DNA from: Mnemiopsis leidyi
Lineage: Eukaryota
Direction of reading: 5' to 3'
Assembly (NCBI GenBank): GCA_048537945.1
Contig: CM108484.1
Span: 9,123,785 to 9,187,784 of the forward strand
DNA: 64,000 nucleotides
Part shown: piece by piece, positions 7,898 to 64,000 of the stretch
Numbering within the stretch: position 1 is the stretch's first letter
How the letters are laid out: each line of letters opens with the position of its first letter
The notes under the pieces: generated by a model
The model's database searches: none
What the model saw: the letters and a program-made list of their open reading frames with translations, nothing else
What the model was told of the DNA's origin: nothing
Program-made: the position numbers and the translations under genes

Positions 7898-7946
7898 TGA
7901 CTAACAATCTGTATTCTGAAATTTTGAAGTTGTATCTCCAATTTAG

Positions 7947-10875: not shown

Positions 10876-11285
10876 GTTAGTCACGTGACTTCCTGTGTAG
10901 TGCTTCTGGCCTGGAATTTTATCTTGATTCTTGTGAATAGGTTGAATGCCTTGGAAACGGAGGCGATTCTAACCGTCGCGTGAACAACATAGGACGTTTT
11001 ACAGGACCTATTGCGCACCGACAGGACCCATTCCGCGATTTAGGCACACTTTTTATATGCCGGCGCGCTATCGGTCCGAATTAAACGTCAGCTATGTTGT
11101 TCACAATAATGGTTAAATTGTTACACACGGAGCTCAAGTATGAACGTCCACTTTTGAAAATGTTGGACGACGGAAGATGATTTGGAGATTTGATTTGAAG
11201 GAAAGGTACAATAATTATTAAGCTGACATAATTATTGAGTCCTGACATTACACAAACTTTACCCATCTAACCGACACACAACCAG

Positions 11286-11789: not shown

Positions 11790-12598
11790 GTATGTGTCTA
11801 TTCGAGTAATTTAATTGTTTTCTTTTCGTTTAGCTGAGCTAGCTGAGATTTTGTACAACTAAATAAAATATTCAGAACTAGGTTAGGGTAAAGGTGTGCT
11901 AACTGAACTATAGAAATAGAAAGTTGGTTTAAAATAGAAAATTGGTAATTAGAACTTTTATTCTGTAACCGTCATATTGTTCTACCTTATGCAGAAGGAC
12001 ATTACTTTCACAAGTCACTCATGTTATAAGGCTTCCTATTTCTTGATTTCGGCACCATACTTGATCTTCGACTTTCGCAAACACGTCACAGTTTCGCCTA
12101 CACAATACACATGTCTTATCACTCTTAAACATTACCTATTGTTCAAGGTAGATGGCGTTGTACGTAGTGCGCGATCACAAGGCTCATACTTAGGGGCAAG
12201 TTGTTTTTATCATGTGACTGAGCGTGAACTCGACGATTTTTCGCCTTTTTTCTTATCTGATTTGAAAATTGTGCCATTCTTTCTCTTCTGAAGTTTGCCA
12301 CTGCTGTTTTATGGTAAGGTTGACATATTTGGGTCTAACTTAAATTGGAAAGGCTGACGGCCTATTGAGTTAGTTAATAAAAAAGAAAATATCTGTACAA
12401 TGCGGGAAACTTTTTGTTTGATTGGATAAATTTGAGCACAAAACTTTGTGATTAGCCTTATTTGGTCACGTTCTAACGTACAACGTCATACTCATGGCCC
12501 ACGGGAAGCAATTAGCAAAGATTTAACCTGAATAGATTCATTAAAACAATCCTCACTGATACCAGCTCCATCTTGTGAATAACTCGGTGTAATTTCAG

Positions 12599-41640: not shown

Positions 41641-41876
41641 CTGAGGGTGATTAAACTTTAAAAAAAGAAATTACATATATACCGGCTTTAGAAAATTTCC
41701 CAGGACATGTCAGAAATCAACATCTTAAATAAGTGTTCATTGTATCACTTGCAAGGCTGTAAATGTGATAACTGCATTAACTGATAACTGCATTAACTGA
41801 TAAAAAATATTAATAGATATTCATAATTTTGACAAGACTAACAAACTCACAACAATTAAGATTCCATTGGACTTAC

Positions 41877-47723: not shown

Positions 47724-47819
47724 CTGAAAATCAGCTAGTTTAGAATTAACCTGATGTGAAATATATATGGCATTTTACACCACGTACTGGCTTAGAAAGC
47801 CTGGTAGAACTGAAAATAC

Positions 47820-47952
47820 CTGTTTCCTAGTTCGTTGTTGGTTCCGTCTCCCAGACGACCGTGGTTTCTATAGCCCCAGGAATAAACCTCGTTGTCTACC
47901 GTTGTAGCTACTGTAAACCTGTCCCCTGCTGACACAAGCGCTATTTTCTTTC
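47820..47952 (-). CDS. NEK9: RCC1-repeat exon (GKKIALVSAGDRFTVATTVDNEVYSWGYRNHGRLGDGTNNELGN-)
   Basis: cttctcacccAG acceptor, ag|GTATTT donor. Confidence 0.7.
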
Positions 47953-48087
47953 CTGGGTGAGAAGTTCTGTATTTTGAGGACCAAAGTTCAATATTTTGTG
48001 TCCTTGGCAGAACCGTTCATGATAAATAGGACAGGTGCGATCAGACGTAAACAAGGAAATAACAACATGGTTGTTGTTGAAACTCAC

Positions 48088-48232
48088 CGGCAAGTTTAGC
48101 CTTGACTATGGTAGGCTGGCTGTAAACTTTGTAGTGGCCTATACCCCGCTGTCCACACTTGTTTGAACCAAGAGTCCAGATTCTGTCGTAGGCGTCGATA
48201 ACAGCGGTGTGGTCAACACCACATGCTACTTC
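48088..48232 (-). CDS. NEK9: RCC1-repeat exon (EVACGVDHTAVIDAYDRIWTLGSNKCGQRGIGHYKVYSQPTIVKAKLA-)
   Basis: tttCAG acceptor shared with each unit of the adjacent 36-bp tandem repeat; donor g|GTGAGT. Confidence 0.7.
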
Positions 48233-48235
48233 CTG

Positions 48236-48490
48236 AAATACAGAAGGATCAACACCACATGCTACTTCCTGAAATACAGAAGGATCAACACCACATGCTA
48301 CTTCCTGAAATATAGGAGGATCAACACCACATGCTACTTCCTGAAATATAGGAGGATCAACACCACATAATACTTCCTGAAATATAGGAGGATCAACACC
48401 ACCTGCTACATCCTGAAATACAGGAGGATCAACACCACATGCTACTTCCTGAAATATAGGAGGATCAACACCACATGCTACTTCCTGATA
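48236..48490. repeat. 36-bp minisatellite x7, each unit duplicating the 3' splice site and first 22 nt of the adjacent NEK RCC1 exon (minus-strand unit caggaagtagcatgtggtgttgatccttctgtatttcag)
   Basis: direct reading; units are open in the exon frame on the minus strand (EVACGVDPSVFQ)n. Confidence 0.9.
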
Positions 48491-49874
48491 TTATACAGGA
48501 GGATTAAGAGCATGTTAGTGTTAGATGTTATTGAACATTTCATTTTTTCATTATCAAGTATGCATCTACAGCTTGCCTCGTCCAAGCTAGTGTCATCTAG
48601 CTGCATTAGATGTTATGAACAACTTGACGATTATACCATAATCATCATTGCCATACTAACGATTTCGGAGAAGCATTTCGTTTTTCTTGTTAAGCACGCC
48701 CAACTTTTAGATTCGGTTAAATCAGAATGTCGACGACGAAAGGAAACATAATTTAATGCTTCAGTCAAAAAAGGCTATATACTTATAGGCAAAAAAGTAC
48801 TTCAGAAACTTTAAATAATGTTTTTAAGATTGTGTTTGATATATAACAAGGATATGCTAGAAAAGGTTAAATACCCGTCCGAAGAGGACAATAGGCTATA
48901 ATAATGAAGAGTTTCCGACATCATGGCAAGAAAAAGTTGGGAGGAAAGTTGTTATTCTCAAAGCAATGTAAATTTGCCGAACTTGTTTCTAAAATTTAAG
49001 CAGTTGAAAGATCTTAACAGTCTGGATGAAAATTGAAATCACTACATTTCTTGTAGAGTCACCTCAGGTCACCACCACCTAGTACCAGCTAAACTTCCTT
49101 TGATACAGTTTACTCCTGGCTCAAGGAAAAAGTCTTGAAGAACTAACTTGGCCCCATTAGTGTTAATAAATGACAGTTTTGTTATCGAAGGGCACGTAAA
49201 GAGTAAAAAAATTACAGATACCTAGCTAAAGAATACATCCTAAGAAGATATTCCGTCTTAGGAAACCTTGGAACAAAGCTAGTGAAAAAAGCCAAAAGCC
49301 AACACTTAATAACAAGTACAGAATATAATCGTGTAACTTCGATCGCGGAGACTCTCCTGAAGAGCTAGTTTCTATGGACCATGACATAAAGTTAAAGTTG
49401 ACAGACCGTTCAACTAACAACTGTGATGTACCTCGACTCTGTGTTTTCATTCTGCGAAATACAGCTGCTAATTGCTAGAGGTATCACTAGAGCACATCGT
49501 TTTTCAAAAGAGGTGAAGGTCAATCTTCAGTTGGAAACATTCACGGTACCTATTTCACTAATGGGAGCGCTGTAAGGATCGGTCCGGTCGTATATTACTT
49601 TAACAGACGATAAATATTTTGGTCAGTGCTTACGTGGAAAGCACAAAACCTTTTATACTGCATATGTACTGAGAAAAAGAAAATTGAAACATACAGATTG
49701 TTATTAGCTTTAAATGTCATAGATTCAGAAACCAACAGAAAAGTTGACTGTCTTTTGAAATTTATTTAAAAAAACTGTTTTTATATGGGATCATTACTTG
49801 ATGTAGAATGTAGATATAGAATGGCCATGTTTAGAAGGCAAATTTAAGAAATTCTAATTTACGATAATACCAAC

Positions 49875-50014
49875 CCTAACTGCGACTGACGAGAGTCCAT
49901 AGACTGGTTTCAAAGTAAAAGTTTCGCCACACTTTGCTACTTTAGCCCCCTTCCTCCCGATTTTGTTAATACCCAACTTGTTATCTTGATTGTCTCCACA
50001 AGCCATCAATTTCC
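49875..50014 (-). CDS. NEK9: RCC1-repeat exon (GKLMACGDNQDNKLGINKIGRKGAKVAKCGETFTLKPVYGLSSVAVR)
   Basis: tttCAG acceptor, agg|GTTGGT donor; restores the phase between flanking exons. Confidence 0.65.
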
Positions 50015-50823
50015 CTGAAATTCAAATTAAAAATCAAAGATATTAAGGCTTGAGTATAATAATAACGTATCAGGATCTAATAACGTATCAGGATCAATAA
50101 ACGATTTTCCAATTTCAAAAAAATAGACTACCATATCAGGAATATTGGTTTTTGTCAATATCTCTTCCCTGAAGATTTTTAAAAATCGGTTGCTCCGGTG
50201 CTTCACGACACGTACATTTATGTTGCCATTGTACTCATTCTTTAATGATAGTCTAAATCTGAATAAAGCTGAATAATACTGAAAAATAGCCTTTCCTAGA
50301 TCAAAATACAAAAATTTAACCCGATATATCTAGTTGGTATAGTTATTCTCAGATACCAGGAAATTTGGTTAGCAGTATTTTCGCCAAAATTTTCTCTTTG
50401 ATCATTTTGGAGCATAGGTTGCTTGGTAACGGGTATGAAATGAGTTTGTTGAATTGTTGCCCATGTTTTGTTGAGCCGGTTTAGTATCTGATTCAGAAAT
50501 ACACTTTGGTGCGTATAAATGAAAATGTATTTTTCGCTAATATCTCTTTTTCTGATCATGAAAAGATAATTGTGCAGTGATTTGAAGCTTATTTTAAGTC
50601 ACTAAGACCTTTTTGGACCAAATTAAAATATCGAATTCCAATTTTCTCGATTCCGATTACCGAAAAATCAACTGTTAAATTGGAGTTGGATTGCCCCCAC
50701 CAATGGTAATACTTCAGCCAGATGTGTTAGAAAATGAAATGCTATGATGAACAGACTGGTTTACAAGGTTTTCTTCTTTAATTTCAGATAATTGAAAAAA
50801 GTGTAAGTTTAAACGATTCCTAC

Positions 50824-50969
50824 CCCCGGTTGTGATGACAAACGAGCAGTGTCTTCCGCAAGCAACCTTAGCAAACTTGGTACCTCGGATCTCCAACTTC
50901 TGAGGAATGTAAAGTATGTCTTCACAGTCGTTGCCAAGGCACCCGTATTCTCCATTGCCCCATCCGTAT
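50824..50969 (-). CDS. NEK9: RCC1-repeat exon (LYGWGNGEYGCLGNDCEDILYIPQKLEIRGTKFAKVACGRHCSFVITTG-)
   Basis: tgtgCAG acceptor, GTAGGA donor. Confidence 0.75.
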
Positions 50970-51319
50970 CTGCACAGTGACAAGTTCAATTGTTACGACT
51001 GAGGTTTCCTAAATTTCCAGAAGGCATTGATTACAGCATTGGCCTTCTTATGTTGTAGGTTACGTAGTGTCTCGTTTCATAGGTGAAAGACCGTACATAC
51101 AAGGTTGACAAGTAGAATTTGGATCTTATTAAAGATCAATACTTAAATACACTAATAAGTTTCTCTATCATGGATAACTTTTAAACCAGATAACGAATCT
51201 AATGTTAAGTGCCAATTGAGTAACAATTAAGTCACAATCAAGTAACAATCAAGTAACAATTAAGTAACAATTAAGTAATTACAGTTAAGAAACAGTTAAG
51301 TAACAGTTAAGTAACATAC

Positions 51320-51495
51320 AAGTCGCCGTCCAGAGTAGTAGCCATGACGTGTGCATCTCCACAAGACACACTGGATATTGCGACGCCGTTGAAGAATGGC
51401 ACTGGAGTTGGGACTAGATAGTTATCCACCTCCTCCCCAAGTCCAAGACACCCGTCGTAGTTGCTACCGAACGCTACCTGCAGTTGTTGGATAAA
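51320..51495 (-). CDS. NEK9: RCC1-repeat exon (FIQQLQVAFGSNYDGCLGLGEEVDNYLVPTPVPFFNGVAISSVSCGDAHVMATTLDGD-)
   Basis: ctcccgCAG acceptor, GTATGT donor; ends in phase 2. Confidence 0.75.
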
Positions 51496-51586
51496 CTGCG
51501 GGAGGAACTAAGTATATCAAGTAGAATATTGGTTTCAGGAAATATTACTGTCAAGTGTAACTGTTAGTCGGGAAGTAAGTACGAAC

Positions 51587-51753
51587 CAGCTGATGCTGCT
51601 CGTCATACTCGTCCTCTACGACTGCCAGAGTGAAGTCCTCCCCGGCCACCACGTCCACCACCCCACTCCCCACCAGATGTTCTACTCGTTTAGGTGACCT
51701 GTAGCTGGCTTTGTCACCGTGCCCTAGCTGTCCGTACATTTCACCGGGCTGTC
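51587..51753 (-). CDS. NEK9: RCC1-repeat exon (GQPGEMYGQLGHGDKASYRSPKRVEHLVGSGVVDVVAGEDFTLAVVEDEYDEQHQL)
   Basis: GQLGHGD RCC1 signature; ccctcAG acceptor, GTTCGT donor. Confidence 0.75.
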
Positions 51754-51940
51754 CTGAGGGTGAAATCTTGTTGTTATTATATACAAGGGAATTTAGGATT
51801 CAAAGTCATATTCTGGTCACATTTACATGATTTAGTTGACACTAAACAAATCAGTTTTAATTTCAAACGAAAGTGCTCCATTCTTCTGGAGACATTTATA
51901 ACATTCTCCAATAAATGCTATCCAAGCAGGATGTGGGTAC

Positions 51941-52082
51941 CTGATGACCAGACATAGAGCTCCTTCTCTACAGTCACTACACAGAAATGTTTTGGTGCTA
52001 CACACACTCTTACAGCTCCCAGGTCCTTCTTGAACGTAGCCAGGGTCTGAGGTGAGGTTTTGCCTCCTCCCCAAATGTACAC
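51941..52082 (-). CDS. NEK9: RCC1-repeat exon (VYIWGGGKTSPQTLATFKKDLGAVRVCVAPKHFCVVTVEKELYVWSS-)
   Basis: RCC1 consensus (vy.wG ... v.cG..h..alt..g.vy.wG); tttCAG acceptor, GTACCC donor. Confidence 0.75.
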
Positions 52083-52439
52083 CTGAAAGTTGCAGTGAGA
52101 TTTGATCCAGCTCGAGTTGTGATTAATTTGATGAACCACGAGACCATGTTTCCTTTTCGCCGCAGATCTAATGTTATTGGTTATGTGTTATGGTTGATTA
52201 CCCACAGCAACTTAACTCAGTGGCTCGAACGTAGACTGAAGTCTTCTTCACGCTACACTGTATAGAGAACGTTTTTTGGGGAGGAATCACGAATTTCCTT
52301 TGCCATTCGACAGCTGTCAACTATTGAACAATGAGAAGCCAGGTTTGATCAATTAATATCGCACATACAAGTTACGAAAACAAATTTGCGACATCTCCGT
52401 AGGAATGTCGCGCTCTATTGAGAGTGGTTTATATTGTCG

Positions 52440-52520
52440 CGGTTTTACACTCGCTCAAAGGTGAACCTTTCGTTAGAACGGAACACGGATACAGGATACT
52501 ATCTCGACAAGGTTAATACA
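52440..52520. repeat. Third (partial) copy of the dispersed repeat family (gtcgcggtttt..tcgttagaacgg..ggatac..tctcgacaag)
   Basis: motif sharing with 15628-15700 and 44580-44700. Confidence 0.5.
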
Positions 52521-53253
52521 AGGGCGAGTCTTTGGAGTTTGGGCCCCAAGCTCTTTTGGAACCATTTAACAGTTGACTCTTCGCTTATTCTAATTTCTAA
52601 CCTCCCAATAACTCATTACTCATTATGTCGAGCGATGCTAACTAATATCAGCATGATAGTGATGTTGTCTGTAATTGATGCTAGCTGCTAGCGAATAAGG
52701 CTAGGTAGTGACCAAAACAACTAACGCAAGTAACCAGACATGATCGATGCTTGAATTACTTATTTTAAACAATAACGAAGAGAGCTTCAGTTTAGAATTA
52801 GCTTATAAACAATACGCGCGCGTGGTTTATACATATATACGCGCCAAAATGTTGCACTAAATGCGTTTATTGAAGAATTGAATAATAAAATTTAAATTCG
52901 GCGCTAGCGCGTTCCATACTTGGCGACGATCTATGAACTCTATCGATTGAAGAGTGTTTTTTCGGAAAAGCGACAACCTTCTGTCATGATAATACTTGAT
53001 ACGTATACCGTAATAATGAATCATAACAATAAACAAGAGTTTTTGCCATGAGGTTGAATAACACATCAGAAATTCACACATGGAATAATCAGTGATATTG
53101 AAAAAGAAGGATATTGAAGTGTAAACAATATCGATACGCTGATGAAACAGTATATCGATTTGACACAATCATGACAACAATTCGAAAGGACTGTGCCAGG
53201 AGGCAAGCCACCAGCTGCCGGCGACTAAGCTAACAGTTAACAAGCCTACTTAC

Positions 53254-53415
53254 TTCAGAGCTGAGGTTGGTGAGAACTGGCTGTCTTCCGGGTGACAGCT
53301 GCGAAAGACCTCGGACGTAATTTTGGGGACCTAACCGCTCTTCTAGAATCTTCTCGCACCCCTTCATGTAGGGGGTGTCTAGTATATCTTGCACGGTGGG
53401 CCGATTATCTGGATC
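53254..53415 (-). CDS. NEK9: NEK kinase-end exon (DPDNRPTVQDILDTPYMKGCEKILEERLGPQNYVRGLSQLSPGRQPVLTNLSSE)
   Basis: matches NEK NPRDRPSVNSILEKGFI; donor gaa|GTAAGT. Confidence 0.75.
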
Positions 53416-53589
53416 CTGAGTTAGAGAAAGTGTGTTAGATTGATGATGAAATTTGTTCTGATGTGGTTACAATGTACATTCTTACAGGTCTATTGATATA
53501 TGCGTGAGACTGCAGCTGATTGTTTTCAGCACTCTTTTGTTTTCAATCACAAGTCTAGCTAGCTATGTATCGCCTTTTAGTGAACATCA

Positions 53590-53850
53590 AATGTGCCAAC
53601 TTGTGTCGGTTTGTGTGCCAGTACGTTAGCATGTGTGTCAGTGTGTGTGTCAGAATATATGTCAGTATGTCAGTATGTGTGTCAGTATAAGTTTGTCAGA
53701 ATATATGTCAGTCTGTCAGTATCTGTGTCAGAATATATGTCAGTATGTCAGTATGTGTGTCAGTATAAGTTTGTCAGAATATATGTCAGTATGTCAGTAT
53801 TTGTGTCAGTATGTGTGTCAGAACATATGTCAGTGTGTCCTGGTATGTCA
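53590..53850. repeat. Tandem repeat (gtcagtatgtgtgtcagaatatatgtcag.. ~57-bp period) in NEK intron
   Basis: direct reading; the ORFs at 53593-53913 are repeat artefacts. Confidence 0.9.
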
Positions 53851-54127
53851 GTTTACAGTTATGGCCAGCTAGCTAGGCTAGTGTACCCGGAAACATACCG
53901 ATCATTAGATTAGCCCGAACTGTAATTACAGTTCTGGGCTACATCTGAACTTGTAAGAAGTTACTATGACAGTTACTATAGCACATATTATTCAGAAATA
54001 TGTACTGTGTACATCACTCAACTTGTAGGAGCGGTGGTTTCTCAGAAATGCATCCTGATTGATATCATGCACAAAAAAATTTAGAGGTCGCTAACAAATT
54101 ACTTAGAACAATATATAGACGTATTAC

Positions 54128-54193
54128 CTTTTGTAACATGCTTGTCAGTATGTTTCTCAAATCTTGGCTCCATGACTCGCTGACCGGCTTGAA
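54128..54193 (-). CDS. NEK9: NEK kinase exon, subdomain X-XI (FKPVSESWSQDLRNILTSMLQK)
   Basis: matches NEK PP.S..YS.DLR.LVSQLFKR; tttCAG acceptor, GTAATA donor. Confidence 0.8.
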
Positions 54194-55610
54194 CTGAAAT
54201 GTTAAGTTGAAAATATTTATGGTCGAACATTCAGCAGTGCTGCCTACTTTAATCAACTACCAGGAAATAGAAACATTTCTCCACGAGACTCGAGTTCGTG
54301 AAATTGACGAACAACATATCCCGGACCTCAGTACTATGTTTGGTATGTTGGCGGTCGCCAAATGTAAGTCTTACATGTCAGACATTTCGAAACCTAAAAC
54401 CAGCTAGACTCATTAAACCTTCGACATGGGCATTAAAAATTCGCCTTAAAATTTGGGAACAATTTTCAAAGGCAGTCAATGTCTGTTGTATTTTCTCTGC
54501 AGTGTGCGTGTCTACTGTCTAAAGCCGTTTATTATTTATACCACTTTTCACCTTCTAGATGCACTAAACGGTTGGACCTATCATTTAGACAGATCATCAA
54601 CTTCCCCAAGTGTTGTCCGTGATTCCCGTACACAGTTCGGACTGATTGATCGGGCGGCAAATAGATTTCCTGGAGGCTTTACCAGCCTTTCTTGTACCGC
54701 ACCAACGAGATAAAACATTGCACACCATCAACTAGAAGATCCTTAATCCATGCAATTATATACAAGGATAAGATATTATGCGTTTACGTGGTCAGAAATG
54801 ACAATATAATTAACAAGGTCATTGCAAAATTACAATTCAAAATTTATTGGCAGCAATTAGACGTGATTAAAATTGCTGCTAACGAGCCGAGACATACAAA
54901 TACTCGATTGTTTGATCCTTCGTACTCCCGCGGTCGATTTGTTACTTCTTCAGAGTGTGCTATGAAGTAAAATCGCGATGAAATAGTTGTGATTAGACGG
55001 TGATATCCAACGGCGGGTTGGATAGGTATTTTCCATCCAATAGAAGAGCTGCAGTGTTGATATTGTACTGTGCGATCGACCAATCAGAGCCGAGAGTTCA
55101 ATTTGTCCTGCTTCACCAAGATCAAGATAGCTAATAAATCATTCTACATGTTCACTTTGTGTTTTTCATTTCGGAACTTTCCGAGAAGGCGTTTAGATCA
55201 GAAGCGTGAAAAGCCAGGATATTGGTTAGACGGTACTTATGGAGTTAACCCGGGTAATTTTTCCCTGGTAATTTTTCCCAAACTCTTTTTGGTCTGATTC
55301 ATCTAAGACGTGGATGGCATAATTGATAATTTCGAAGTTTTCGTAAACACTTAGGCCGACAAGTTTCCATTATATATAAAAAGTTGACGGCATTTATTAA
55401 CATTAAGTTGCATAGCTCTTCTGATATATTAAGCGTTACAGAAGTAGCCAATTTGCTTTTTTGTCCGAGTTTTGTATATATAATTTTTTCTTGTGCATAA
55501 ATCTAAGGAATCCACCTTCCCAAACATATCATGATCATAATTTATTCATTTAAATTTTTCTATTCAAAACGACTACCATCCCTCAGCCTCTCATTCTCAG
55601 ATAGAAAAAT

Positions 55611-56585
55611 ATGGTAAATCCAGCCCTGCCAGACCCGACACTCATCTTGGCAGGTATTCTTACCCAAATAACATTCGAGAAGATAGTGGTGCGGACAAAA
55701 CTTGAGAGGCAGCTATCCCTCGACAAGAAATATTTTGAGATATCCTGGAGATTAGCAATCTTCAGTAAATATCCCGGTCTAGGCTGGCTACAGATAATTT
55801 TGTTGTCCAGTGTTGTTACCATCTTTTCCGTTCTGAGGACACCAAGAAAACATAGACTGGCTAGGGGAATCTTAACTTTATTTTTAACTTTCATTTTCAA
55901 TGTCAGTGTGGGAAGTGTTGGATTTACAGAGATCTATAACGTGGACGAACATCTAGAATATCGGATAACTCTGGAGTACTTCCAATACGCGACAACACCG
56001 ATATTCGCTTCTGCAGCGGTGGTAGTTGTGGGGAACTACCTGAAGATTCCCCGAGGAAGAACCACAGTTCGATTCGACCTGCGTACAGATAGGACAGAAG
56101 AAACGTCCCTCAGATCCCTCCTGAAGACTTACTCGCCGGGATCAGCGGTTCTTCTGACGGGGGTCTTTGCTCAACTTACTTTCGAGAAGTTATTCAGCAT
56201 TCTTATCACCTCCTACCCTACAGCGCCTGATTTCTGTGCACTGCGCGGCATCGGCAGCTGGATCCAACTTCTTTCCCTCTCTACTTTCCTTGTTTTCATC
56301 GTTCTGTGTGTGCGATCTGGCCCAAACAGGTTGTCTCAGGGGACAGTTACCTTTTTCTTCTCATTTATCTTAAACTTTAGTCTCGGTCACATCGGAGAGA
56401 TGGGAACATATTGTGGTAGTCAGTACAGCTCCAGAGTAAGGGACGTTTACAGGTATGGGACAATTCCTCTGGTCGGACTAACCGCTCTTGTTTGTTTTGC
56501 TGGTTTTTTGGTGACATTCGAGAAAGGCCGGAGTTCGGGAAACCCTCAGTGCCAACTTTCCAGAAGGGACACTGTTGCTGCATAA
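55611..56585 (+). CDS. Intronless ORF, 324 aa, predicted 8-TM membrane protein built from two homologous 4-TM halves; nested in a NEK intron on the opposite strand; no recognisable family
   Basis: long stop-free ORF in otherwise AT-rich intronic DNA; eight hydrophobic segments; halves align (LILAGILTQITFEKIV.. / AVLLTGVFAQLTFEKLF..; GILTLFLTFIFNVSVGSVGFTEIY / GTVTFFFSFILNFSLGHIGEMGTY). Confidence 0.4.
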   Translation: MVNPALPDPTLILAGILTQITFEKIVVRTKLERQLSLDKKYFEISWRLAIFSKYPGLGWLQIILLSSVVTIFSVLRTPRKHRLARGILTLFLTFIFNVSVGSVGFTEIYNVDEHLEYRITLEYFQYATTPIFASAAVVVVGNYLKIPRGRTTVRFDLRTDRTEETSLRSLLKTYSPGSAVLLTGVFAQLTFEKLFSILITSYPTAPDFCALRGIGSWIQLLSLSTFLVFIVLCVRSGPNRLSQGTVTFFFSFILNFSLGHIGEMGTYCGSQYSSRVRDVYRYGTIPLVGLTALVCFAGFLVTFEKGRSSGNPQCQLSRRDTVAA

Positions 56586-58197: not shown

Positions 58198-58327
58198 CTC
58201 TTTAGTAACGATACTGTAAACAAGACGAAGCTGGTTTGTGGCGTCGAAAGTCTTGCGTAGCTCCAACATCTCATATAGAACACAGCCACACGACCAAACA
58301 TCACTCTTGTAACCGTACGGTAAACCC
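58198..58327 (-). CDS. NEK9: NEK kinase exon, subdomain IX (GLPYGYKSDVWSCGCVLYEMLELRKTFDATNQLRLVYSIVTKE)
   Basis: matches NEK Y..KSDIWSLGCVLYEL...F.A; acceptor ttttgCAG, donor GTGAGA. Confidence 0.8.
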
Positions 58328-58334
58328 CTGCAAA

Positions 58335-58510
58335 AGCAATGAGATCACTTGGTTACTTGGTTACTTGGTTACTTGGTTACTTGGTTACTCGTTTACTTGG
58401 TTACTTGATAACTCGTTTACTTTGTTACTTGTTTACTTGGTTACTCGGTTACTCGGTTACTCGGTCACTCGGTTACTTGGTTACTCGGTTACTTGGTTAC
58501 TCGGTTACTT
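58335..58510. repeat. Short-period tandem repeat (ggttact[ct]g)n immediately 5' (minus sense) of the NEK kinase exon
   Basis: direct reading; ORF 58236-58553 is an artefact. Confidence 0.9.
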
Positions 58511-59107
58511 GGATCTAACCGATAATCTCGAAAACCGTGTATTGATTTTCTAGGTTCTATTTAGAAATAAATGTCCGGACCGGTTTAAATGATAAAATGG
58601 CTAATCTTCACTGCGATTTTAGTTAAATTTGATCCTTATGATATTGCCCTACTTCCACTATTAAAGAGAGTCTACAAAAGAAACAGTTTAAAATGAGAAT
58701 ATTGAAAGCACTGGCCGGAAATCTACGTCATGTATTTGAATATACGTGTATGTGCCTCTGAACTTCTTCCACAAAGCAATTTCTCACACGTCAATCCCAT
58801 TGTTGTCCAGGGTCCTTCCATTGTCGACATTTATGAGATAATACAGAGGTAGTACATCAAAAAAGGAGCAAAACAATGTGAAAGTGTGGGACCTAGAAAC
58901 GCGCTAGTATCATAACAAGACGTTTTCGACTGAGTATCTGTCTCGACAATGGAACTCCTTTCCGCAAGACGGACATTGGTCCTCATTGTCTAATTCCATT
59001 GTCCTTTGTACAAAGATACCAGCTAGCTCCATCATTCCGCTCATTTTTACTTGTGCGCACCAGATCGCCAAACGTTAGTTGACGTTAGTTGGATTTGATT
59101 TCGTAAG

Positions 59108-59259
59108 ATGGAGAAGTTGGTTTTGTTAACACTACTGGGTGTTGCTGCTGGAGAGCTGGTAAACATCGCCCCCAATGGCACTATCAGCGCTACTTCAATT
59201 GGGTGGGGTGGTGCCCCCAGCAGGGCCATAGATGGAAACACTAATGGTTATTGGGGCGG
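59108..59259 (+). CDS. FTL gene exon 1: signal peptide + domain-1 part a (MEKLVLLTLLGVAAGELVNIAPNGTISATSIGWGGAPSRAIDGNTNGYWG-)
   Basis: ATG 59108; donor gg|GTGAGT. Confidence 0.85.
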
Positions 59260-59386
59260 GTGAGTTTAAATATATTGAGAATTAAATGCTGTCGTCAGAA
59301 AATCAAAACTTTGATCTGACTGAAAAATGTAACTTTAGCTGGCATCTCTACTAAAATCCCAGACTGTAAACATTTCACGTTCTCAG

Positions 59387-59531
59387 TGGATCCTGCTACC
59401 ACTCAGCCTCGTGGCAAGGAAGCAAACTGACCCTGGCTCTGCCTGGAGAAGAGTTTGGAGCAACCTGGCCGGTTTACAACGTCAGTGTTTTCAACAGACT
59501 CGACACGTGTTGTGATCAGCGGATACAGGGC
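59387..59531 (+). CDS. FTL domain 1 part b (GSCYHSASWQGSKLTLALPGEEFGATWPVYNVSVFNRLDTCCDQRIQG)
   Basis: tctCAG acceptor, GTGAGT donor. Confidence 0.85.
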
Positions 59532-59714
59532 GTGAGTATTGAGTATAAATAGTCTCATTTGTGCGGTATACGTGGATATGTAAAATGTATCACTCGAGAT
59601 ATTATTTTGCATGTGCATATTTGAAGAAAAATTAACCGGGGAAACCGATTCCCAAACAAGAATGTCTCCCCCAACTCCTCTGCCAGCAGTAAAACTATTT
59701 TCCCCGACATTCAG

Positions 59715-59868
59715 GTAGAGGTGTGGCTAGATGAACACATGTGTGGTGCTCTCACGTTTGTGGAAGGACAGAAGGAGTACATGGTTAACTGTGAGGGTAA
59801 GACCGGTAGTATCGTCACCGTACACCATCCCTCTCAGTACCTACAGATTTGTGAGCTTCAAGTGTTTG
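59715..59868 (+). CDS. FTL domain 1 part c (VEVWLDEHMCGALTFVEGQKEYMVNCEGKTGSIVTVHHPSQYLQICELQVF-)
   Basis: cattCAG acceptor, g|GTGAGT donor. Confidence 0.85.
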
Positions 59869-60134
59869 GTGAGTTTCTCCTCTGTAATTTTTAATACAAT
59901 TATATATATATTCAGAATTGGATAAAACATATAAGGATAACCTTGAAAAAATATTCAGTTTAGTTTGCAGTAAAAAACCTCTATACCTAATTGTCGCGGT
60001 GAACCGGCTCATGATGCTTGCAGCTCCACTGCAGTAGCCACTAAAAATTGCATGGCAGAATGCCTGCAATAGTTGCTGCTTTACATGGCCAGCAGTATAG
60101 TCATATTAACGATGTCTAACTTTACTCACTCCAG

Positions 60135-60270
60135 TTGACTCATCCTACACACCCGACATACCGACCTATGTCAATGTAGCCAAGGAGGGCTCTGCCAGCG
60201 CCACCAGTGTAGGTTGGGGCGGAGTAGCAAGCAGGGTCATGGACGGAAATACCAACGGATACTGGAACGG
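60135..60270 (+). CDS. FTL domain 2 part a (VDSSYTPDIPTYVNVAKEGSASATSVGWGGVASRVMDGNTNGYWN-)
   Basis: cactcCAG acceptor, gg|GTAAGT donor. Confidence 0.85.
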
Positions 60271-60449
60271 GTAAGTAGAGTCGAGTATTTTCTTAAGAAA
60301 TCAGAGTCTAACTCAAGTTATCAAGGATAGCATGAATTAGTTCACATGTTCACATGTTGAATGATCTACTGCATCCTTGTTTCATTGTTTGGTAAATGAA
60401 TTTTTACGACAAAGTCTTAAATCTCGAACTAAATAACTTTCCTTAACAG

Positions 60450-60594
60450 ACAGTCGTGCTATCACTCCGGTAACGCGAACAACAACAGAGTGACAGTGTC
60501 CCTCCCGCACTCAGAGATAGGTATCACCTACCCTGTGTCCATGGTCAGGGTCTACAACAGGATGGACTCTTGCTGCGATCAGAGGATTGAAAAT
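60450..60594 (+). CDS. FTL domain 2 part b (GQSCYHSGNANNNRVTVSLPHSEIGITYPVSMVRVYNRMDSCCDQRIEN)
   Basis: ccttaaCAG acceptor, GTAGGG donor. Confidence 0.85.
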
Positions 60595-60743
60595 GTAGGG
60601 CACTAGGACAGTAGGGCACCGTGTTTAAAGTTTGCTTGAAATAAATCCGTCAGCTAGTTATCCCCGTTGCAATATCTGTTGGAGGTAAGGTAATCTTGAC
60701 GTGTTAAAAACCCTAGACATTGAAATCATAACATCAATTGCAG

Positions 60744-60897
60744 GCACAGGTGTTTGTTGGTGATCACATGTGCGGACAGATCAAGTTCGTAGAAGGTAAA
60801 AAAGCGTACTCGTTTGACTGTGGTCGGAAGAACGCTAGCGAGGTTTCAGTCAGACTTAGTTCAGGCTGGCTCCAAGTCTGCGAAATTGAAGTTCTTG
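60744..60897 (+). CDS. FTL domain 2 part c (AQVFVGDHMCGQIKFVEGKKAYSFDCGRKNASEVSVRLSSGWLQVCEIEVL-)
   Basis: aattgCAG acceptor, g|GTAAGA donor. Confidence 0.85.
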
Positions 60898-61118
60898 GTA
60901 AGATTCTGAGATAATGCTTCTCAAACGGTTTGCTCACTAAATGACAAGCTGATTTGTTAATTGGTGATTACGAAAAAAGGGTTCCAATACACATCGATTT
61001 TTTTGTTTACCAATTCTACTCCTTAACAATCGCCTCTTTGTAGTTATTGACTACTAGCTTTATGACAGTTGCATGCTTGCAAATGAAAATTTCACAAATA
61101 TAGTGGTTCATTAATCAG

Positions 61119-61257
61119 TTTTGGAGGAAGACATACCAACGGACATTCCCAATTTCATTAACGTTGCGATAAATGGTACAGCTTCTGCTTCATCTGTTAG
61201 TTGGGGAGGTGTAGCAGCTAGAGTTAATGATGGGGACACAAACGGATTTTGGGGAGG
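61119..61257 (+). CDS. FTL domain 3 part a (VLEEDIPTDIPNFINVAINGTASASSVSWGGVAARVNDGDTNGFWG-)
   Basis: ttaatCAG acceptor, gg|GTAAGT donor. Confidence 0.85.
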
Positions 61258-61267
61258 GTAAGTTGAA

Positions 61268-61400
61268 CGCTGAGCGTGTGTAACAGTGTAACAGTGTAAC
61301 AGTGTAACAGCGTAACATTGTAACATTGTAACAGCGTAACAGCGTAACAGTGTAACAGTGTAACAGCGTAACAGTGTAACAGTGTAACAGTGTAAGTTTG
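61268..61400. repeat. (gtaacag)n heptamer microsatellite starting 10 bp after the domain-3a splice donor
   Basis: direct reading; ORFs 61111-61481 (-) are artefacts. Confidence 0.9.
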
Positions 61401-61553
61401 TCGTGTTTGTTTGTACCACGTAACAGAGCTAAATATATCCCAGACAGGCCATATCACATATGTAACCACCTTAATCGTCAACCTGAAATCCTGGTAATTA
61501 ATTACTTTTCAATTTAAAATTGCTCCACCTAGTCCACATTCCCACCATTCCAG

Positions 61554-61701
61554 ACGATCCTGCTACCACTCAGTAGACCGTGCCGGACAACACCAAGTGG
61601 CAGTTTCACTTCCTGCCGGAGAGTTCGGTATCAAGTACCCGGTATCTTTTGTCAATGTCTACAATAGACTCGACTCGTGTTGTGATCAACGTCTTAACGG
61701 T
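61554..61701 (+). CDS. FTL domain 3 part b (GRSCYHSVDRAGQHQVAVSLPAGEFGIKYPVSFVNVYNRLDSCCDQRLNG)
   Basis: ccattcCAG acceptor, GTAAGT donor. Confidence 0.85.
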
Positions 61702-61939
61702 GTAAGTAGAATTCTTTGTCGTTTATTTATTGATTGTTCCCAGGGTAACAATATGTTAACTCCGGTTAATTGACAATGAAAGACATATGGTGAGCACATA
61801 GTTTACTTGAATGCCAAAGATATCAACTCTTCGACTGTGAATAGTACAAGCAGAGTAAAACTAGAAAGCCGAACTCAATACTGATCTCGGGGCTCAGTGA
61901 GGATAAACCTGACGATACTAAATATCCTAATCCACTCAG

Positions 61940-62096
61940 GCGATGGTTTACGCTGATGAGCACCAGTGTGGACAGGTCCAGTTCAAAGAGGGACAGCAAG
62001 CCTACACGTTTGACTGTGGTGAAAAGGAAGCTAGCGAGGTTTCTGTTAGATTGAGTAACGGACAGTCTCTCCAAGTGTGTGAGCTCGAGGTTTTAG
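61940..62096 (+). CDS. FTL domain 3 part c (AMVYADEHQCGQVQFKEGQQAYTFDCGEKEASEVSVRLSNGQSLQVCELEVL-)
   Basis: ccactCAG acceptor, g|GTACGA donor. Confidence 0.85.
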
Positions 62097-62261
62097 GTAC
62101 GACTTATCGATCGTCATGATTATCACACAATATTTCGGTTTCTATAGGCGATCTATATATGAGGTCACGTATATATATATATATATATATATATATTCAC
62201 GATGCGCAAGAAGTGTCAGAAGTAATTCATTTAAAAATATATTCACAGTACTAACAATAAC

Positions 62262-62430
62262 AGTAACCAACAGTACTCTCTCTTCACCAATCACAGTAAA
62301 AATGATAACACTCTCTCTTCACCAATCACAGTAAAAATGATAACACTCTCTCTTCACCAATCACAGTAGAAATGATAACACTCTCTCTTCACCAATCACA
62401 GTAGAAATGATAACACTCTCTCTTCCCCTC
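62262..62430. repeat. 38-bp tandem repeat x4 (ctctcttcaccaatcacagtaaaaatgataacact) ending in the acceptor of FTL domain-4a exon; each unit is a degenerate copy of that 3' splice-site region
   Basis: unit ...ataacactctctcttcaccaatcacag vs real acceptor ataacactctctcttcccctcag. Confidence 0.85.
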
Positions 62431-62432
62431 AG

Positions 62433-62571
62433 TCCTGGAGGAGAACATGCCCACTAACATCCCCGTCTTTACTAACGTGGCTCTCAACCGACCTGCTGCC
62501 CAGAGTTCTGTAGGCTGGGGTGGTCAAGCCTCTCGAGCAGTGGACGGTAACATCAACAAGATGTGGGGCGG
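62433..62571 (+). CDS. FTL domain 4 part a (VLEENMPTNIPVFTNVALNRPAAQSSVGWGGQASRAVDGNINKMWG-)
   Basis: tcttcccctCAG acceptor, gg|GTGAGT donor; contains the canonical AQSS ... AVDGN. Confidence 0.85.
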
Positions 62572-62721
62572 GTGAGTAGAGGGTAACGATATCTTAGGAA
62601 TCGTAACACATGAGTAGATAACATAAGTTCGAACGCAGTTTCTGACATTAACACTGACATTAAACTATTTGTTTACGAGATCTTGTAGGAAATGTTGGTT
62701 AAACTAACGACCCCTCTACAG

Positions 62722-62854
62722 CGGGTCGTGTACACACACTTCTCAACTTACTGGTAACTGGTGGAAGGTAGAACTAGACAAGGAGGAGTACATCCAGAAC
62801 GTGGTAATACACAACCGTATCGACTGTTGTTCTAACAGACTCAACGGAGCTAAG
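62722..62854 (+). CDS. FTL domain 4 part b (GGSCTHTSQLTGNWWKVELDKEEYIQNVVIHNRIDCCSNRLNGAK)
   Basis: ctctaCAG acceptor, GTAATC donor; canonical SC.HT..WW.V.L..NR.DCC..R. Confidence 0.85.
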
Positions 62855-63300
62855 GTAATCTTGTCAACTTCCTGTTATAGTGGCTGTAAAATTTTGTTCG
62901 GAAATGTTTTTACCGCAGTAGTGGCGTGTGCCTTAAGCGCATCAGCTCGGCTTTCTTATATGCCAAGCTGGTAGGTGGTAAGATCTTCTTCTGAATTTTC
63001 GGCACGCGGAAACACACGTCTGGTCGCGGGGGTTTTTCGTAACTTGAAGTTTTCAGTGGCCATGGCTTGTTATTTCGTTCATCAACGACATACGCTATTT
63101 AGTGCACAAAAATGAAAGAGCTATAATGCGGTTAAAACATCCATTTGCTAATGGAAATTTGTAATTTGAAACTAGTTTTTGGAAAAGTGATACTTACATC
63201 TTTATAGATTGCATAACGCCACAACATTATTATCATGGCGATTATTCATTCGCCAAACAAGATTATGTGAACCAATAATGTAATAATGGGACCGTTTAGC

Positions 63301-64000
63301 AGACAAAATCCCTGATCGTGCAGGTGAAGAACGAGTTAAGAATTCTTGTTCCCGCAGGTTTGGGTGAAGTACGTGTAAATAATTCTTCTTCCCGCAGGTT
63401 TGGGTGAAGTACGTGTAAATAATTCTTGTTCCCGCAGGTTTGGGTGAAGTACGATTAAAGAATTCTTGTTCCCGCAGGTTTGGGTGAAGTACGAATAAAT
63501 AATTCTTGTTCCCGAAAGTTTGGTTGAAGTACGAATAAATAATTCTTGTTCCCGCAGGTTTGGGTGAAGTACGATTAAAGAATTCTTGTTCCCGCAGGTT
63601 TGGGTGAAGTACGAATAAATAATTCTTGTTCCCGCAGGTTTGGGTGAAGTACGAATAAATAATTCTTGTTCCCGCAGGTTTGGGTGAAGTACGATTAAAG
63701 AATTCTTGTTCCCGCAGGTTTGGGTGAAGTACGAATAAATAATTCTTGTTCCCGCAGGTTTGGGTGAAGTACGAATAAATAATTCTTGCTCCCGCAGGTT
63801 TGGGTGAAGTACGAGTAAATAATTCTTGTTCCCGCAGGTTTGGGTGAAGTACGAGTAAATAATTCTTGTTCCAGCAGGTTTGGGTGAAGAACGAGTTAAG
63901 AATTCTTGTTTCCGCAGGTTTGGGTGAAGTACGAGAAAATAATTCTTGTTCCAGCAGGTTTGGGTGAAGTACGAGTAAATAATTCTTGTTCCCGCAGTTT
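63301..64000. repeat. 40-bp minisatellite x~17 (gtttgggtgaagtacg[at][ag]taaataattcttgttcccgcag); each unit is a 3' splice site plus an exon start resembling the first 16 nt of an FTL part-c exon
   Basis: compare cag|gtttgggtgaagtac with real part-c exon starts cag|gtagaggtgtggcta, cag|gcacaggtgtttgtt, cag|gcgatggtttacgct; units hit an in-frame TAA after 6 codons. Confidence 0.85.

What the first reader, a model, noticed from the sequence alone, without database searches (positions are those of the whole stretch)
59108..64000. Secreted multi-domain F-type lectin (fucolectin-like) gene, each domain split into three phase-identical exons
A signal peptide is followed by at least four tandem FTL domains (59108-62854 and beyond). 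All carry the SS..GWGG..ASRA.DGN / SC.H(S/T) / N.(L/M/I)D.CC..R / C.(L/I).V.G signature. Every domain has the same three-exon structure with the same phases (2-0-1), consistent with repeated whole-domain (3-exon cassette) duplication. FTL arrays are innate-immune pattern-recognition lectins in invertebrates. This gene is apparently antisense-nested inside an intron of the NEK-like kinase gene.
Basis: partly seen in the sequence, partly recalled or inferred. Interest (0 to 1): 0.7.

Follow-up and report, generated by a model that had tools for sequence, protein, structure and literature searches.

The report
Comb-jelly four-domain fucose-lectin gene
This is a real, expressed gene of the comb jelly Mnemiopsis leidyi for a secreted protein made of four fucose-lectin domains, built from repeated three-exon units and sitting backwards inside an intron of a Nek9-like kinase gene; it is a sound but fairly ordinary new member of a well-known lectin family.

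Summary
Window 59108-62854 (+) holds exons 1-11 of a 13-exon gene. All boundaries are AG|GT, the reading frame is open for 534 codons, and intron phases run 2-0-1 in each repeat. A 1,983-nt intronless transcript-type contig matches every junction and supplies the missing end. The full protein has 600 aa: a signal peptide, four F-type lectin domains and an acidic tail. Exons 12-13 lie beyond position 64000. The organism is the ctenophore Mnemiopsis leidyi. Domain 4 is a canonical F-type lectin (FBP32 E=7e-33). Domains 1-3 are a divergent subtype with a loop insertion and one extra residue in the fucose motif, but they fold as F-type lectins (AF2 pLDDT 92; top 11 PDB matches are all F-lectins). 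The gene is under strong purifying selection (dN/dS 0.08). Bolinopsis has five cassettes, not four, which supports whole-cassette duplication. Antisense nesting in a Nek9-like kinase intron is shown in two other ctenophore assemblies; the window shows only one flank. Immune function is inferred, not shown. Side finding: the window ends in at least 16 tandem copies of exon 12's 3' splice site. Verdict: new member of a known kind; modest interest.

The parts
59044..59107 (+). 5' UTR (minimum extent) of the lectin gene
   Evidence: Transcript-type contig L001 bases 2-217 align to window 59044-59259.
59108..59259 (+). Exon 1: start codon, signal peptide (about residues 1-15), first third of FTL domain 1; followed by a phase-2 intron
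59387..59531 (+). Exon 2: D1 middle (SCYHS...NRLDTCCDQRIQG); followed by a phase-0 intron
59715..59868 (+). Exon 3: D1 end (...ICELQVF); followed by a phase-1 intron (cassette boundary)
60135..60270 (+). Exon 4: D2 first third
60450..60594 (+). Exon 5: D2 middle
60744..60897 (+). Exon 6: D2 end
61119..61257 (+). Exon 7: D3 first third
61554..61701 (+). Exon 8: D3 middle
61940..62096 (+). Exon 9: D3 end
62433..62571 (+). Exon 10: D4 (canonical FTL) first third
62722..62854 (+). Exon 11: D4 middle (SCTHT...NWWKVEL...NRIDCCSNRLNGAK); last lectin exon in the window
62855..64000 (+). Intron 11 (incomplete; runs off the window). Exons 12 and 13 lie beyond 64000
   Evidence: Transcript bases 1668-1868 and protein residues 535-600 have no match in the window. 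The orthologue has exon 12 about 600 bp after exon 11.
63323..63997 (+). 40-bp minisatellite, at least 16.9 copies. Each unit is the last ~29 nt of intron 11 (polypyrimidine tract + CAG) plus the first ~11 nt of exon 12, i.e. a tandem array of decoy 3' splice sites
   Evidence: TRF. Unit-by-unit listing and comparison with the transcript's exon 12 start and the orthologue's single-copy junction. Absent from L002/L003.
62275..62425 (+). 35-bp x 4.3 array ending at the acceptor of exon 10; the unit begins like the real polypyrimidine tract
58198..58327 (-). Host gene: Nek9-like kinase exon (about residues 180-223, subdomains IX-X, 'GLPYGYKSDVWSCGCVLYEM...'); lower boundary of the intron that holds the lectin gene
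47795..54205 (-). Host gene: further Nek9-like exons (end of the kinase domain at 54128-54205 and 53251-53433; RCC1 repeats at 52136-49872 and on to ~47800)
   Evidence: tblastn with Bolinopsis Nek9-like P0036; ORF translations.

Best explanation
Window 59044-64000 (+) is the 5' eleven-thirteenths of a Mnemiopsis leidyi gene. It encodes a 600-aa secreted, acidic protein with four F-type lectin domains (FTLDs). SHOWN: the exon model, its expression as a spliced RNA, the domain family and fold, strong purifying selection on all four domains, construction from 1-1 phase-symmetric three-exon cassettes whose number varies between genera (4 versus 5), and conserved residence on the antisense strand of the intron that splits kinase subdomains VIII and IX of a Nek9-like gene. 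INFERRED: after signal-peptide cleavage the protein is secreted. Each domain is held by three disulfides and a Ca2+ site (h-h-D-G-x). Each domain presents a His/Arg/Arg pocket that binds terminal L-fucose or a similar sugar. Four pockets on one chain would give high-avidity cross-linking (agglutination or opsonisation) of fucosylated surfaces such as microbes or prey. D4 has the canonical pocket and most likely binds fucose. D1-D3 keep the triad but have a 6-residue loop insertion and one extra residue before the vicinal Cys-Cys, so they may have a shifted fine specificity. The array grew by unequal recombination between cassettes; the phase-1 boundaries allow this without breaking the frame.
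For: Exon model and phases. Intronless transcript-type contig identical at all junctions. Identical 600-aa proteins from independent sources, and the M. leidyi NCBI model KAL5256618.1. Pfam PF22633 at 2.6e-30 overall; by domain, D4 63.8 and D2 33.3 bits, above the 27.8-bit gathering cutoff. PDB: FBP32 at 7e-33 for D4 and 1.9e-7 for D3. D3 AF2 model pLDDT 92.5; Foldseek top 11 are all F-lectins (1K12, 3LE0, 3CQO, 2J1R; TM 0.75-0.80), well ahead of CBM32 modules. His, RxD, basic residue, DG and six Cys are invariant or nearly so across 21 domains. Profile search returns 1,509 hits, mostly named fucolectin. dN/dS is 0.06-0.13 per domain at dS 0.76. Exon lengths are identical in the orthologue. 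Bolinopsis has five cassettes, with D3 and D4 93% identical. Nesting is seen in L002, L003 and the annotated L004.
Against: No binding, localisation or expression-pattern data were available, and no signal-peptide predictor was available. D1 and D3 alone fall below Pfam's gathering score (24.1 and 21.2 bits), and their motif spacing departs from the canonical fucose motif. Some FTLDs with deviant motifs are thought to have lost or changed sugar binding (PMC5712786). The strong purifying selection is unlike the diversifying selection seen in some recognition lectins. The upstream host exons, and therefore the nesting itself, are not visible in the window.
Confidence: 0.85

Rival explanations
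1. The protein is a gamete-recognition or cell-adhesion lectin, like oyster sperm bindin with its 1-5 tandem FTLDs, and not an immune pattern-recognition molecule.
For: The architecture of tandem FTLDs behind a signal peptide is the same as in bindin. The FTL review lists fertilisation among FTL roles (PMC5712786). Cassette number varies between genera.
Against: dN/dS of about 0.08 contrasts with the positive selection and extreme polymorphism reported for bindin (PMC5712786). There is no extra N-terminal non-lectin region: the first FTLD starts directly after the signal peptide. No tissue data exist either way.
Confidence: 0.15
2. Only D4 is a working fucose lectin. D1-D3 are structural or spacer modules, or bind a non-fucose ligand such as another sugar, lipid or protein, as other discoidin/CBM32-type domains do.
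For: D1-D3 have H-x31-R-x-D-x-CC-x-x-R in place of the canonical spacing. They lack the WW.V(D/E)L segment and score weakly against Pfam. The review notes that deviant motifs may mean changed or lost specificity.
Against: The His/Arg/Arg triad, the Ca2+ motif and all cysteines are retained under strong constraint (ω 0.06-0.13). The D3 model matches F-lectins better than CBM32 modules.
Confidence: 0.3
3. The locus is a decaying or non-functional exon array (a pseudogene), or a gene-prediction artefact.
For: One Logan contig carries a frameshift that splits the ORF (P0027/P0029). The NCBI models for both M. leidyi and Bolinopsis are partly wrong.
Against: Several intact 600-codon transcript-type contigs exist. 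All splice sites are canonical. There is strong purifying selection, and exon lengths are identical in an orthologue at dS 0.76. The frameshift lies in an A6/A7 homopolymer, and the model errors trace to repeats and a T4/T5 homopolymer.
Confidence: 0.02
4. The lectin gene is a recent horizontal acquisition or contaminant from bacteria, which also carry FTLDs.
For: Bacterial discoidin/FTLD proteins appear among the more distant hits (P0007-P0009). Lateral transfer has been proposed for FTLDs (PMC5712786).
Against: The gene has twelve spliceosomal introns. Its position inside an animal kinase gene is conserved in three ctenophore assemblies. Bacterial hits reach only 25-35% identity. A second, unlinked ctenophore FTL gene has near-identical intron positions.
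Confidence: 0.01

Closest known systems
Tandem-domain fish F-type lectins (striped bass MsaFBP32, PDB 3CQO; eel agglutinin AAA, PDB 1K12)
   Same: Secreted proteins made only of FTLDs. D4 aligns end to end with FBP32 (E=7e-33) with the same His...RxDCCxxR spacing, the same Ca2+ motif and the same cysteines. The D3 model superposes at TM 0.76-0.80.
   Different: There are four domains, not one or two. D1-D3 carry a 6-residue loop insertion and an extra residue before the Cys-Cys. Each ctenophore domain has three exons (introns at 'WGG|xSC', phase 2, and 'xNG|AxV', phase 0). Fish domains have two exons, with a phase-2 intron just before the Cys of 'NNPR|C' (PMC5712786). The tail is acidic.
Oyster (Crassostrea gigas) sperm bindin
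   Same: Signal peptide followed by a variable number (1-5) of tandem FTLD repeats encoded by repeated exon units. Repeat number changes by recombination (PMC5712786).
   Different: Bindin is hypervariable and positively selected; this gene has ω of about 0.08. Here the first FTLD starts directly after the signal peptide. No evidence for alternative splicing of cassettes was found here.
Xenopus multi-FTLD proteins and pentraxin-fusion proteins (2-5 tandem FTLDs)
   Same: Arrays of up to five FTLDs in one polypeptide (PMC5712786).
   Different: There is no pentraxin or other partner domain, and the lineage is different.
Other ctenophore FTL genes (Bolinopsis LOC134823733 = P0010; 'fucolectin-6-like' = P0134)
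   Same: Same domain family. P0010 has introns in the same phases within one to two codons of those in the window gene.
   Different: They lie on other chromosomes, have other architectures (one or two canonical FTLDs, with an extra N-terminal region in P0010), and were not shown to be nested in Nek9.
Nested (intronic, opposite-strand) protein-coding genes, e.g. Drosophila 2mit in timeless2
   Same: The whole gene lies within a host intron on the opposite strand, and the arrangement is conserved between species (PMC3786989, PMC3814207).
   Different: The host is a Nek9-like kinase, and the host intron splits the catalytic domain. A second conserved nested ORF sits in the neighbouring intron.
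Human F7 IVS7 37-bp VNTR, which spans the exon 7/intron 7 boundary
   Same: A minisatellite whose unit contains a splice site, giving tandem decoy sites (PMC1557585). It resembles the 40-bp array at 63323-63997 and the donor array inferred after exon 12.
   Different: In the window the repeated site is a 3' splice site. Exon 12 appears to be bracketed by arrays on both sides.

Membership tests
F-type lectin domain (FTLD / fucolectin, FTP) | F-type jellyroll beta-barrel fold | tested here: met
   D3 AF2 model has pLDDT 92.5 and pTM 0.86. The Foldseek top 11 PDB hits are all F-lectins (1K12, 3LE0, 3CQO, 2J1R, 2J22), with TM 0.75-0.80 and E<=1e-10; CBM32 modules follow at E>=3e-8. D4 aligns over its full length to FBP32 at 7e-33.
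F-type lectin domain (FTLD / fucolectin, FTP) | Fucose-binding motif His...Arg-x-Asp-x4-Arg/Lys with the canonical spacing (written HX24RXDX4(R/K) in PMC5712786; 26 intervening residues when counted on FBP32/AAA), in domain 4 | tested here: met
   D4 reads SCTH-x26-R-I-D-C-C-S-N-R and aligns without gaps to FBP32 across the motif.
F-type lectin domain (FTLD / fucolectin, FTP) | The same motif with canonical spacing, in domains 1-3 | tested here: not met
   The His, Arg, Asp and basic residues are all present and conserved. The spacing is H-x31-R and R-x-D-x5-R, with one extra residue before the Cys-Cys. These domains are members by fold and profile, but a divergent subtype.
F-type lectin domain (FTLD / fucolectin, FTP) | Cation-binding motif h-h-D-G-x | tested here: met
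   The four domains have AIDGN, VMDGN, VNDGD and AVDGN. Asp is invariant and Gly nearly invariant in the 21-domain alignment.
F-type lectin domain (FTLD / fucolectin, FTP) | Conserved cysteines, including the vicinal Cys-Cys at the binding site | tested here: met
   Six Cys per domain, 24 in total. The columns are invariant or at least 90% conserved.
F-type lectin domain (FTLD / fucolectin, FTP) | Ca2+-associated binding of L-fucose or fucosylated glycans | not testable with these tools
   This needs recombinant protein plus a glycan array or fucose-affinity assay.
Secreted protein | Cleavable N-terminal signal peptide and no membrane anchor | tested here: inconclusive
   The N-terminus MEKLVLLTLLGVAAG|E has a hydrophobic core (Kyte-Doolittle up to 2.9) and a small-residue -3/-1 pattern. 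Equivalent N-termini occur in the orthologues, and there is no later hydrophobic segment. No dedicated predictor was available.
Nested antisense gene in a host intron | Host-gene exons of one transcript flank the whole inner gene, on the opposite strand | tested here: met
   The continuous Bolinopsis Nek9-like protein maps with residues 1-180 downstream and 180-304 upstream of the lectin gene in L002, L003 and L004. NCBI annotates the 945-aa kinase gene as spanning the lectin gene. In the window only the residue-180-and-onward side is present.
Oyster-bindin-type FTL | Hypervariability or positive selection on the FTLD repeats | tested here: not met
   ω is 0.06-0.13 for every domain against the L002 orthologue.
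Coagulation-factor 5/8 C (discoidin) domain, strict sense | Best match to PF00754, rather than to the FTL-type profile or structures | tested here: not met
   PF00754 scores 51.7 bits against 105.3 for PF22633. Structural neighbours are F-lectins first. The protein belongs to the same superfamily but to the FTL branch.

The most novel reading that the evidence does not exclude
Two linked readings are not excluded. (1) D1-D3 define a ctenophore-specific FTLD subclass whose remodelled pocket (a 6-residue 'G-x-F/L-G-x-x-YP' loop insertion replacing the WW.VDL segment, plus an extra residue before the vicinal disulfide) recognises a ligand other than terminal fucose. One polypeptide would then read two glycan codes, in one of the earliest-branching animal lineages. 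(2) M. leidyi exon 12 is bracketed by young minisatellites made of its own splice sites: at least 16 decoy acceptors upstream and about 8 decoy donors downstream. Similar junction-derived arrays occur at a Nek9 exon and at other lectin exons. This could reflect a genome-wide process of splice-junction amplification in lobate ctenophores that tunes or diversifies splicing, for example by producing truncated ...VWVKYE* isoforms.
Probability: 0.15. Interest if true: 0.55.

Novelty: new member of a known kind. Interest (0 to 1): 0.35.

Why it matters
F-type lectins are a well-studied family of fucose-recognition proteins with a patchy distribution. The main review traces them from viruses to vertebrates and names Hydra and Nematostella, but it does not mention ctenophores (PMC5712786). 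The 2025 M. leidyi genome paper on immune genes surveyed C-type lectins and did not survey F-type lectins (PMC11797021). This locus gives a transcript-verified, correctly delimited multi-FTLD gene from a lineage at or near the base of animals. It corrects two faulty public gene models. It is a clean case of domain-array growth by phase-symmetric exon-cassette duplication (4 versus 5 cassettes). It also documents a nested gene arrangement conserved across lobate ctenophores. These points are useful for annotation and for comparative studies of lectin and innate-immunity evolution, but none overturns current understanding.

Tried and rejected
- My first hand-set exon boundaries were off by one and gave stops. 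I re-derived them from AG/GT sites.
- Exact-sequence look-ups of P0001 and of the NCBI model P0023 found no contig, so I could not read M. leidyi DNA beyond 64000. Exons 12-13 and the downstream Nek9 exons were instead inferred from the transcript-type contig (L001), the P0023 sequence and the orthologous loci (L002/L003/L004).
- A regex for kinase subdomain IX failed. The exon was found by reading the three-frame translation.
- I considered DUF7402 as the identity of D1/D3. I rejected it because the scores are below the cutoff and the fold search puts F-lectins first.
- I looked for further FTL exons or exon 12 elsewhere in the window and found none.
- I searched the literature for F-type lectin or fucolectin in ctenophores and found only incidental co-mentions.
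- I searched the supplements of the M. leidyi genome paper for this gene and for the Pfam accessions and found nothing.
- I tested whether the ctenophore intron positions are ancestral to animal FTL genes. They are not shared with a fish fucolectin.
- The pseudogene, contaminant and HGT readings were rejected (see rival explanations).

Full report
**1. Observation**

Reading 58500-64000 and listing ORFs showed the reported motifs on the plus strand. Delimiting exons by AG/GT gave eleven exons:

- 59108-59259, 59387-59531, 59715-59868
- 60135-60270, 60450-60594, 60744-60897
- 61119-61257, 61554-61701, 61940-62096
- 62433-62571, 62722-62854

The spliced frame is uninterrupted for 534 codons. Intron phases are 2, 0, 1 repeated, so each three-exon cassette is bounded by phase-1 introns. 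The cassettes are 435-451 nt long; the three internal ones (435, 444 and 432 nt) are multiples of three.

**2. Independent confirmation and the missing end**

A homology search returned a 600-aa protein identical to the model over its full length. Its 90% cluster contains KAL5256618.1 of *Mnemiopsis leidyi* and 600-aa products from ~1.96-1.98 kb Logan contigs.

One such contig, L001 (1,983 nt, SRR26183978), has a single 600-codon ORF. It aligns to the window as exactly the eleven predicted blocks, and its 5' UTR starts at 59044 or further upstream. An intronless contig of this kind must derive from spliced RNA, so the junctions are confirmed.

The protein continues '...NGAK|VWVSKNDEWQECG...LCEVEVL|VPEEAPTEVIDEE*'. 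That is one more exon completing domain 4 and a 13-residue acidic tail exon. Nothing in the window matches residues 535-587. The gene therefore has 13 exons, with exons 12 and 13 beyond position 64000.

**3. Domain identity**

- The whole model hits Pfam PF22633 (F5_F8_type_C_2) at 2.6e-30.
- It also hits the solved F-type lectins FBP32, lectinolysin, the S. pneumoniae fucose-binding modules and eel agglutinin.

Per-domain results:

| Domain | PF22633 score (cutoff 27.8 bits) | FBP32 E-value |
|---|---|---|
| D1 | 24.1 | not searched |
| D2 | 33.3 | not searched |
| D3 | 21.2 | 1.9e-7 |
| D4 | 63.8 | 7e-33, aligned end to end |

A 21-domain alignment shows the following to be invariant or nearly so:

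- the His, the R-x-D, and the distal basic residue;
- the Ca2+-site D-G;
- six cysteines.

D4 has the canonical spacing. D1-D3 have a 6-residue loop insertion and one extra residue before the vicinal Cys-Cys.

An AlphaFold2 model of D3 is confident (pLDDT 92.5). Its eleven best PDB matches are all F-lectins (TM 0.75-0.80), clearly ahead of CBM32 modules. A profile built from the alignment retrieves 1,509 proteins at E<=1e-12. They are mostly named fucolectin and include 'fucolectin-6-like [Bolinopsis microptera]'.

So all four domains are FTLDs. D1-D3 are a divergent subtype.

**4. Is it a working gene?**

Orthologous genomic loci L002 and L003 come from an unidentified ctenophore assembly (ENA ERZ25070731), probably a lobate given its similarity to Mnemiopsis and Bolinopsis. 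They have the same 13 exons with identical lengths for exons 1-12.

dN/dS between *M. leidyi* and L002 is 0.079 overall and 0.06-0.13 per domain, at dS 0.76. That indicates strong purifying selection on every domain.

**5. Cassette duplication**

In *Bolinopsis microptera* (L004) the orthologue has 16 exons. These form five cassettes plus the tail exon and encode 744 aa.

Domains pair by position across species:

- Ml_D1 with Bm_D1: 76%
- Ml_D2 with Bm_D2: 79%
- Ml_D3 with Bm_D3 and Bm_D4: 72% and 69%
- Ml_D4 with Bm_D5: 76%

Bm_D3 and Bm_D4 are 93% identical to each other, which indicates a recent extra cassette. Within *M. leidyi*, D2-D3 are 61% identical, D1-D2 are 48%, and D4 against the others is 35-41%. 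The four-domain core therefore predates the split of the two genera.

Intron positions elsewhere:

- A fish fucolectin gene has two exons per domain, with its intron in a different place. This agrees with PMC5712786.
- A second, unlinked Bolinopsis FTL gene has introns of the same phases within one or two codons of those in the window gene.

The three-exon cassette is therefore a ctenophore-family trait.

**6. Nesting**

The window's minus strand carries Nek9-like exons:

- 58198-58327: kinase subdomains IX-X
- 54128-54205 and 53251-53433: end of the kinase domain
- ~52.1 kb down to ~47.8 kb: RCC1 repeats

Kinase residues 1-180 are not in the window.

In L002, L003 and L004 those exons lie downstream of the lectin gene. 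The DFG...SPE exon is only ~250 bp past the lectin's last coding exon. The whole lectin gene sits antisense in the intron at kinase residue ~180. NCBI's Bolinopsis annotation independently shows the 945-aa Pkinase+RCC1 gene spanning the lectin gene.

Nesting is therefore conserved across at least three ctenophore assemblies. For the window it is inferred by synteny.

**7. Mechanism**

Shown: the gene structure, its expression, the fold, conservation of the binding and Ca2+ residues, and purifying selection.

Inferred from the family: secretion, Ca2+-stabilised domains, and a His/Arg/Arg pocket binding terminal fucose. Tetravalency would give avidity for cross-linking fucosylated surfaces.

Unresolved:

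- whether the biological role is immune recognition, prey or food handling, or gamete recognition;
- whether D1-D3 share D4's specificity.

**8. Literature**

- The FTL review lists cnidarians but not ctenophores.
- The *M. leidyi* chromosome-level genome paper surveyed C-type lectin domains but not F-type lectins, and its supplements do not mention this gene.
- Automated annotation already labels some Bolinopsis proteins fucolectin-like.

This is therefore a new, well-characterised member of a known family, not a new kind of system.

**9. Side observations**

*Splice-site arrays.*

- The last 675 bases of the window are a 40-bp minisatellite of at least 16.9 copies. Each unit is the final ~29 nt of intron 11 plus the first ~11 nt of exon 12, i.e. 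tandem decoy 3' splice sites. Each decoy is followed in frame by VWVKY(E/D)-stop. The orthologue has a single copy.
- The NCBI *M. leidyi* model's spurious tail, 'VEVLGKCSGR' x8, indicates a matching array of exon 12's donor beyond the window.
- A 36-bp x 7.7 array at 48213-48488 (minus strand) repeats the 3' splice site and first 21 nt of a Nek9 exon.
- A 35-bp array abuts the acceptor of lectin exon 10.
- L002 has a 30-bp x3 repeat at the exon 3 donor.
- The human F7 IVS7 VNTR is a known precedent (PMC1557585).
- The transcript-type contigs use the innermost authentic sites.

*Second nested gene.* A conserved, intronless 324-codon ORF encoding a hydrophobic protein with no Pfam match lies at 55611-56585 (+), in the adjacent Nek9 intron.

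**10. Verdict**

Novelty: new member of a known kind. Interest is modest, at 0.35.

Noticed in passing
window 63323-63997 (runs off the window end): A 40-bp minisatellite of at least 16.9 copies. Its unit is the lectin's intron 11 acceptor (polypyrimidine tract + CAG) plus the first ~11 nt of exon 12, giving at least 16 decoy 3' splice sites, each followed in frame by VWVKY(E/D)*. The L002/L003 orthologues have a single copy.
   Followed up: yes
beyond the window; inferred from P0023 (KAL5256618.1) residues ~588-660: The NCBI M. leidyi model ends in 'VEVLGKCSGR' x8. This is read-through of the exon 12 donor into a 30-bp array made of the exon 12 tail plus the 5' splice site. Exon 12 therefore appears bracketed by arrays of its own splice sites, and the public model's C-terminus is wrong (transcripts give ...EVEVL|VPEEAPTEVIDEE*).
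   Followed up: partly
window 48213-48488 (minus strand): A 36-bp x 7.7 array whose unit is 'cctcctatatttcag|GAAGTAGCATGTGGTGTTGA', i.e. the 3' splice site plus the first 21 nt of a Nek9 RCC1 exon. The last copy is the real junction. The frame stays open through the array (QEVACGVDPPIF repeated).
   Followed up: partly
window 62275-62425: A 35-bp x 4.3 array ends at the acceptor of lectin exon 10. The unit 'actctctcttcaccaatcacag...' begins like the real tract 'actctctcttcccctcag|'.
   Followed up: partly
L002 and L003 9178-9267: A 30-bp x 3 repeat 'TATG|GTAAGTTTCTTAAG...' starts at the donor of lectin exon 3 in the orthologue. This is another splice-junction-derived tandem repeat.
   Followed up: no
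window 55611-56585 (+): A second conserved nested gene: an intronless 324-codon ORF with no Pfam hit, several hydrophobic segments and two homologous ~160-aa halves. It lies in the Nek9 intron next to the one holding the lectin. It is 86% identical in L002 (5047-6021) and L003 (4479-5453), and 59% identical in Bolinopsis (L004 4445-5290).
   Followed up: partly
L004 10504-10508 (Bolinopsis microptera CM047404.1): The assembly has T5 where the transcript-type protein P0002 implies T4, at the acceptor of lectin cassette 3. RefSeq XP_063694881.1 (503 aa) consequently starts with out-of-frame sequence and misses two cassettes. The corrected gene has 5 cassettes and encodes 744 aa.
   Followed up: yes
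window 60744-60897 (exon 6); Logan proteins P0027 and P0029: One transcript contig splits the ORF in two (268 + 304 aa). The break is consistent with an A7-versus-A6 difference in the run 'GGTAAAAAAGCG'. It is either a sequencing error or a frameshift allele.
   Followed up: no
window 62570-62572 / 62722 (codon 499): Gly in the window, P0026 and P0023, but Ser in P0001 and P0029. Residue 14 is Ala or Val, and residue 560 is Met or Val, in different sources. These look like ordinary coding polymorphisms.
   Followed up: no
L002 17198-18400 versus L003: A 62-bp x 19 minisatellite lies in the Nek9 intron of L002 and is absent from L003. The two contigs otherwise match, with a ~4.2 kb length difference between the kinase exons. 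They are probably haplotigs.
   Followed up: no
window 58347-58512 and 61278-61395: There are two 8-bp microsatellites. (ACTTGGTT)n x 20.8 starts 20 bp from the Nek9 exon at 58198-58327. (GTGTAACA)n x 14.8 starts 20 nt after the donor of lectin exon 7.
   Followed up: no
window ~3000-12000 (+), 37097-38512 (-), 40486-41670 (-), 1267-2351: The other genes are a clathrin heavy chain (multi-exon), an uninterrupted 472-codon Pyr_redox_2 oxidoreductase ORF, and an uninterrupted 395-codon SLC52 riboflavin-transporter ORF. There is also a 31-bp x 35 minisatellite that is open in three minus-strand frames.
   Followed up: partly
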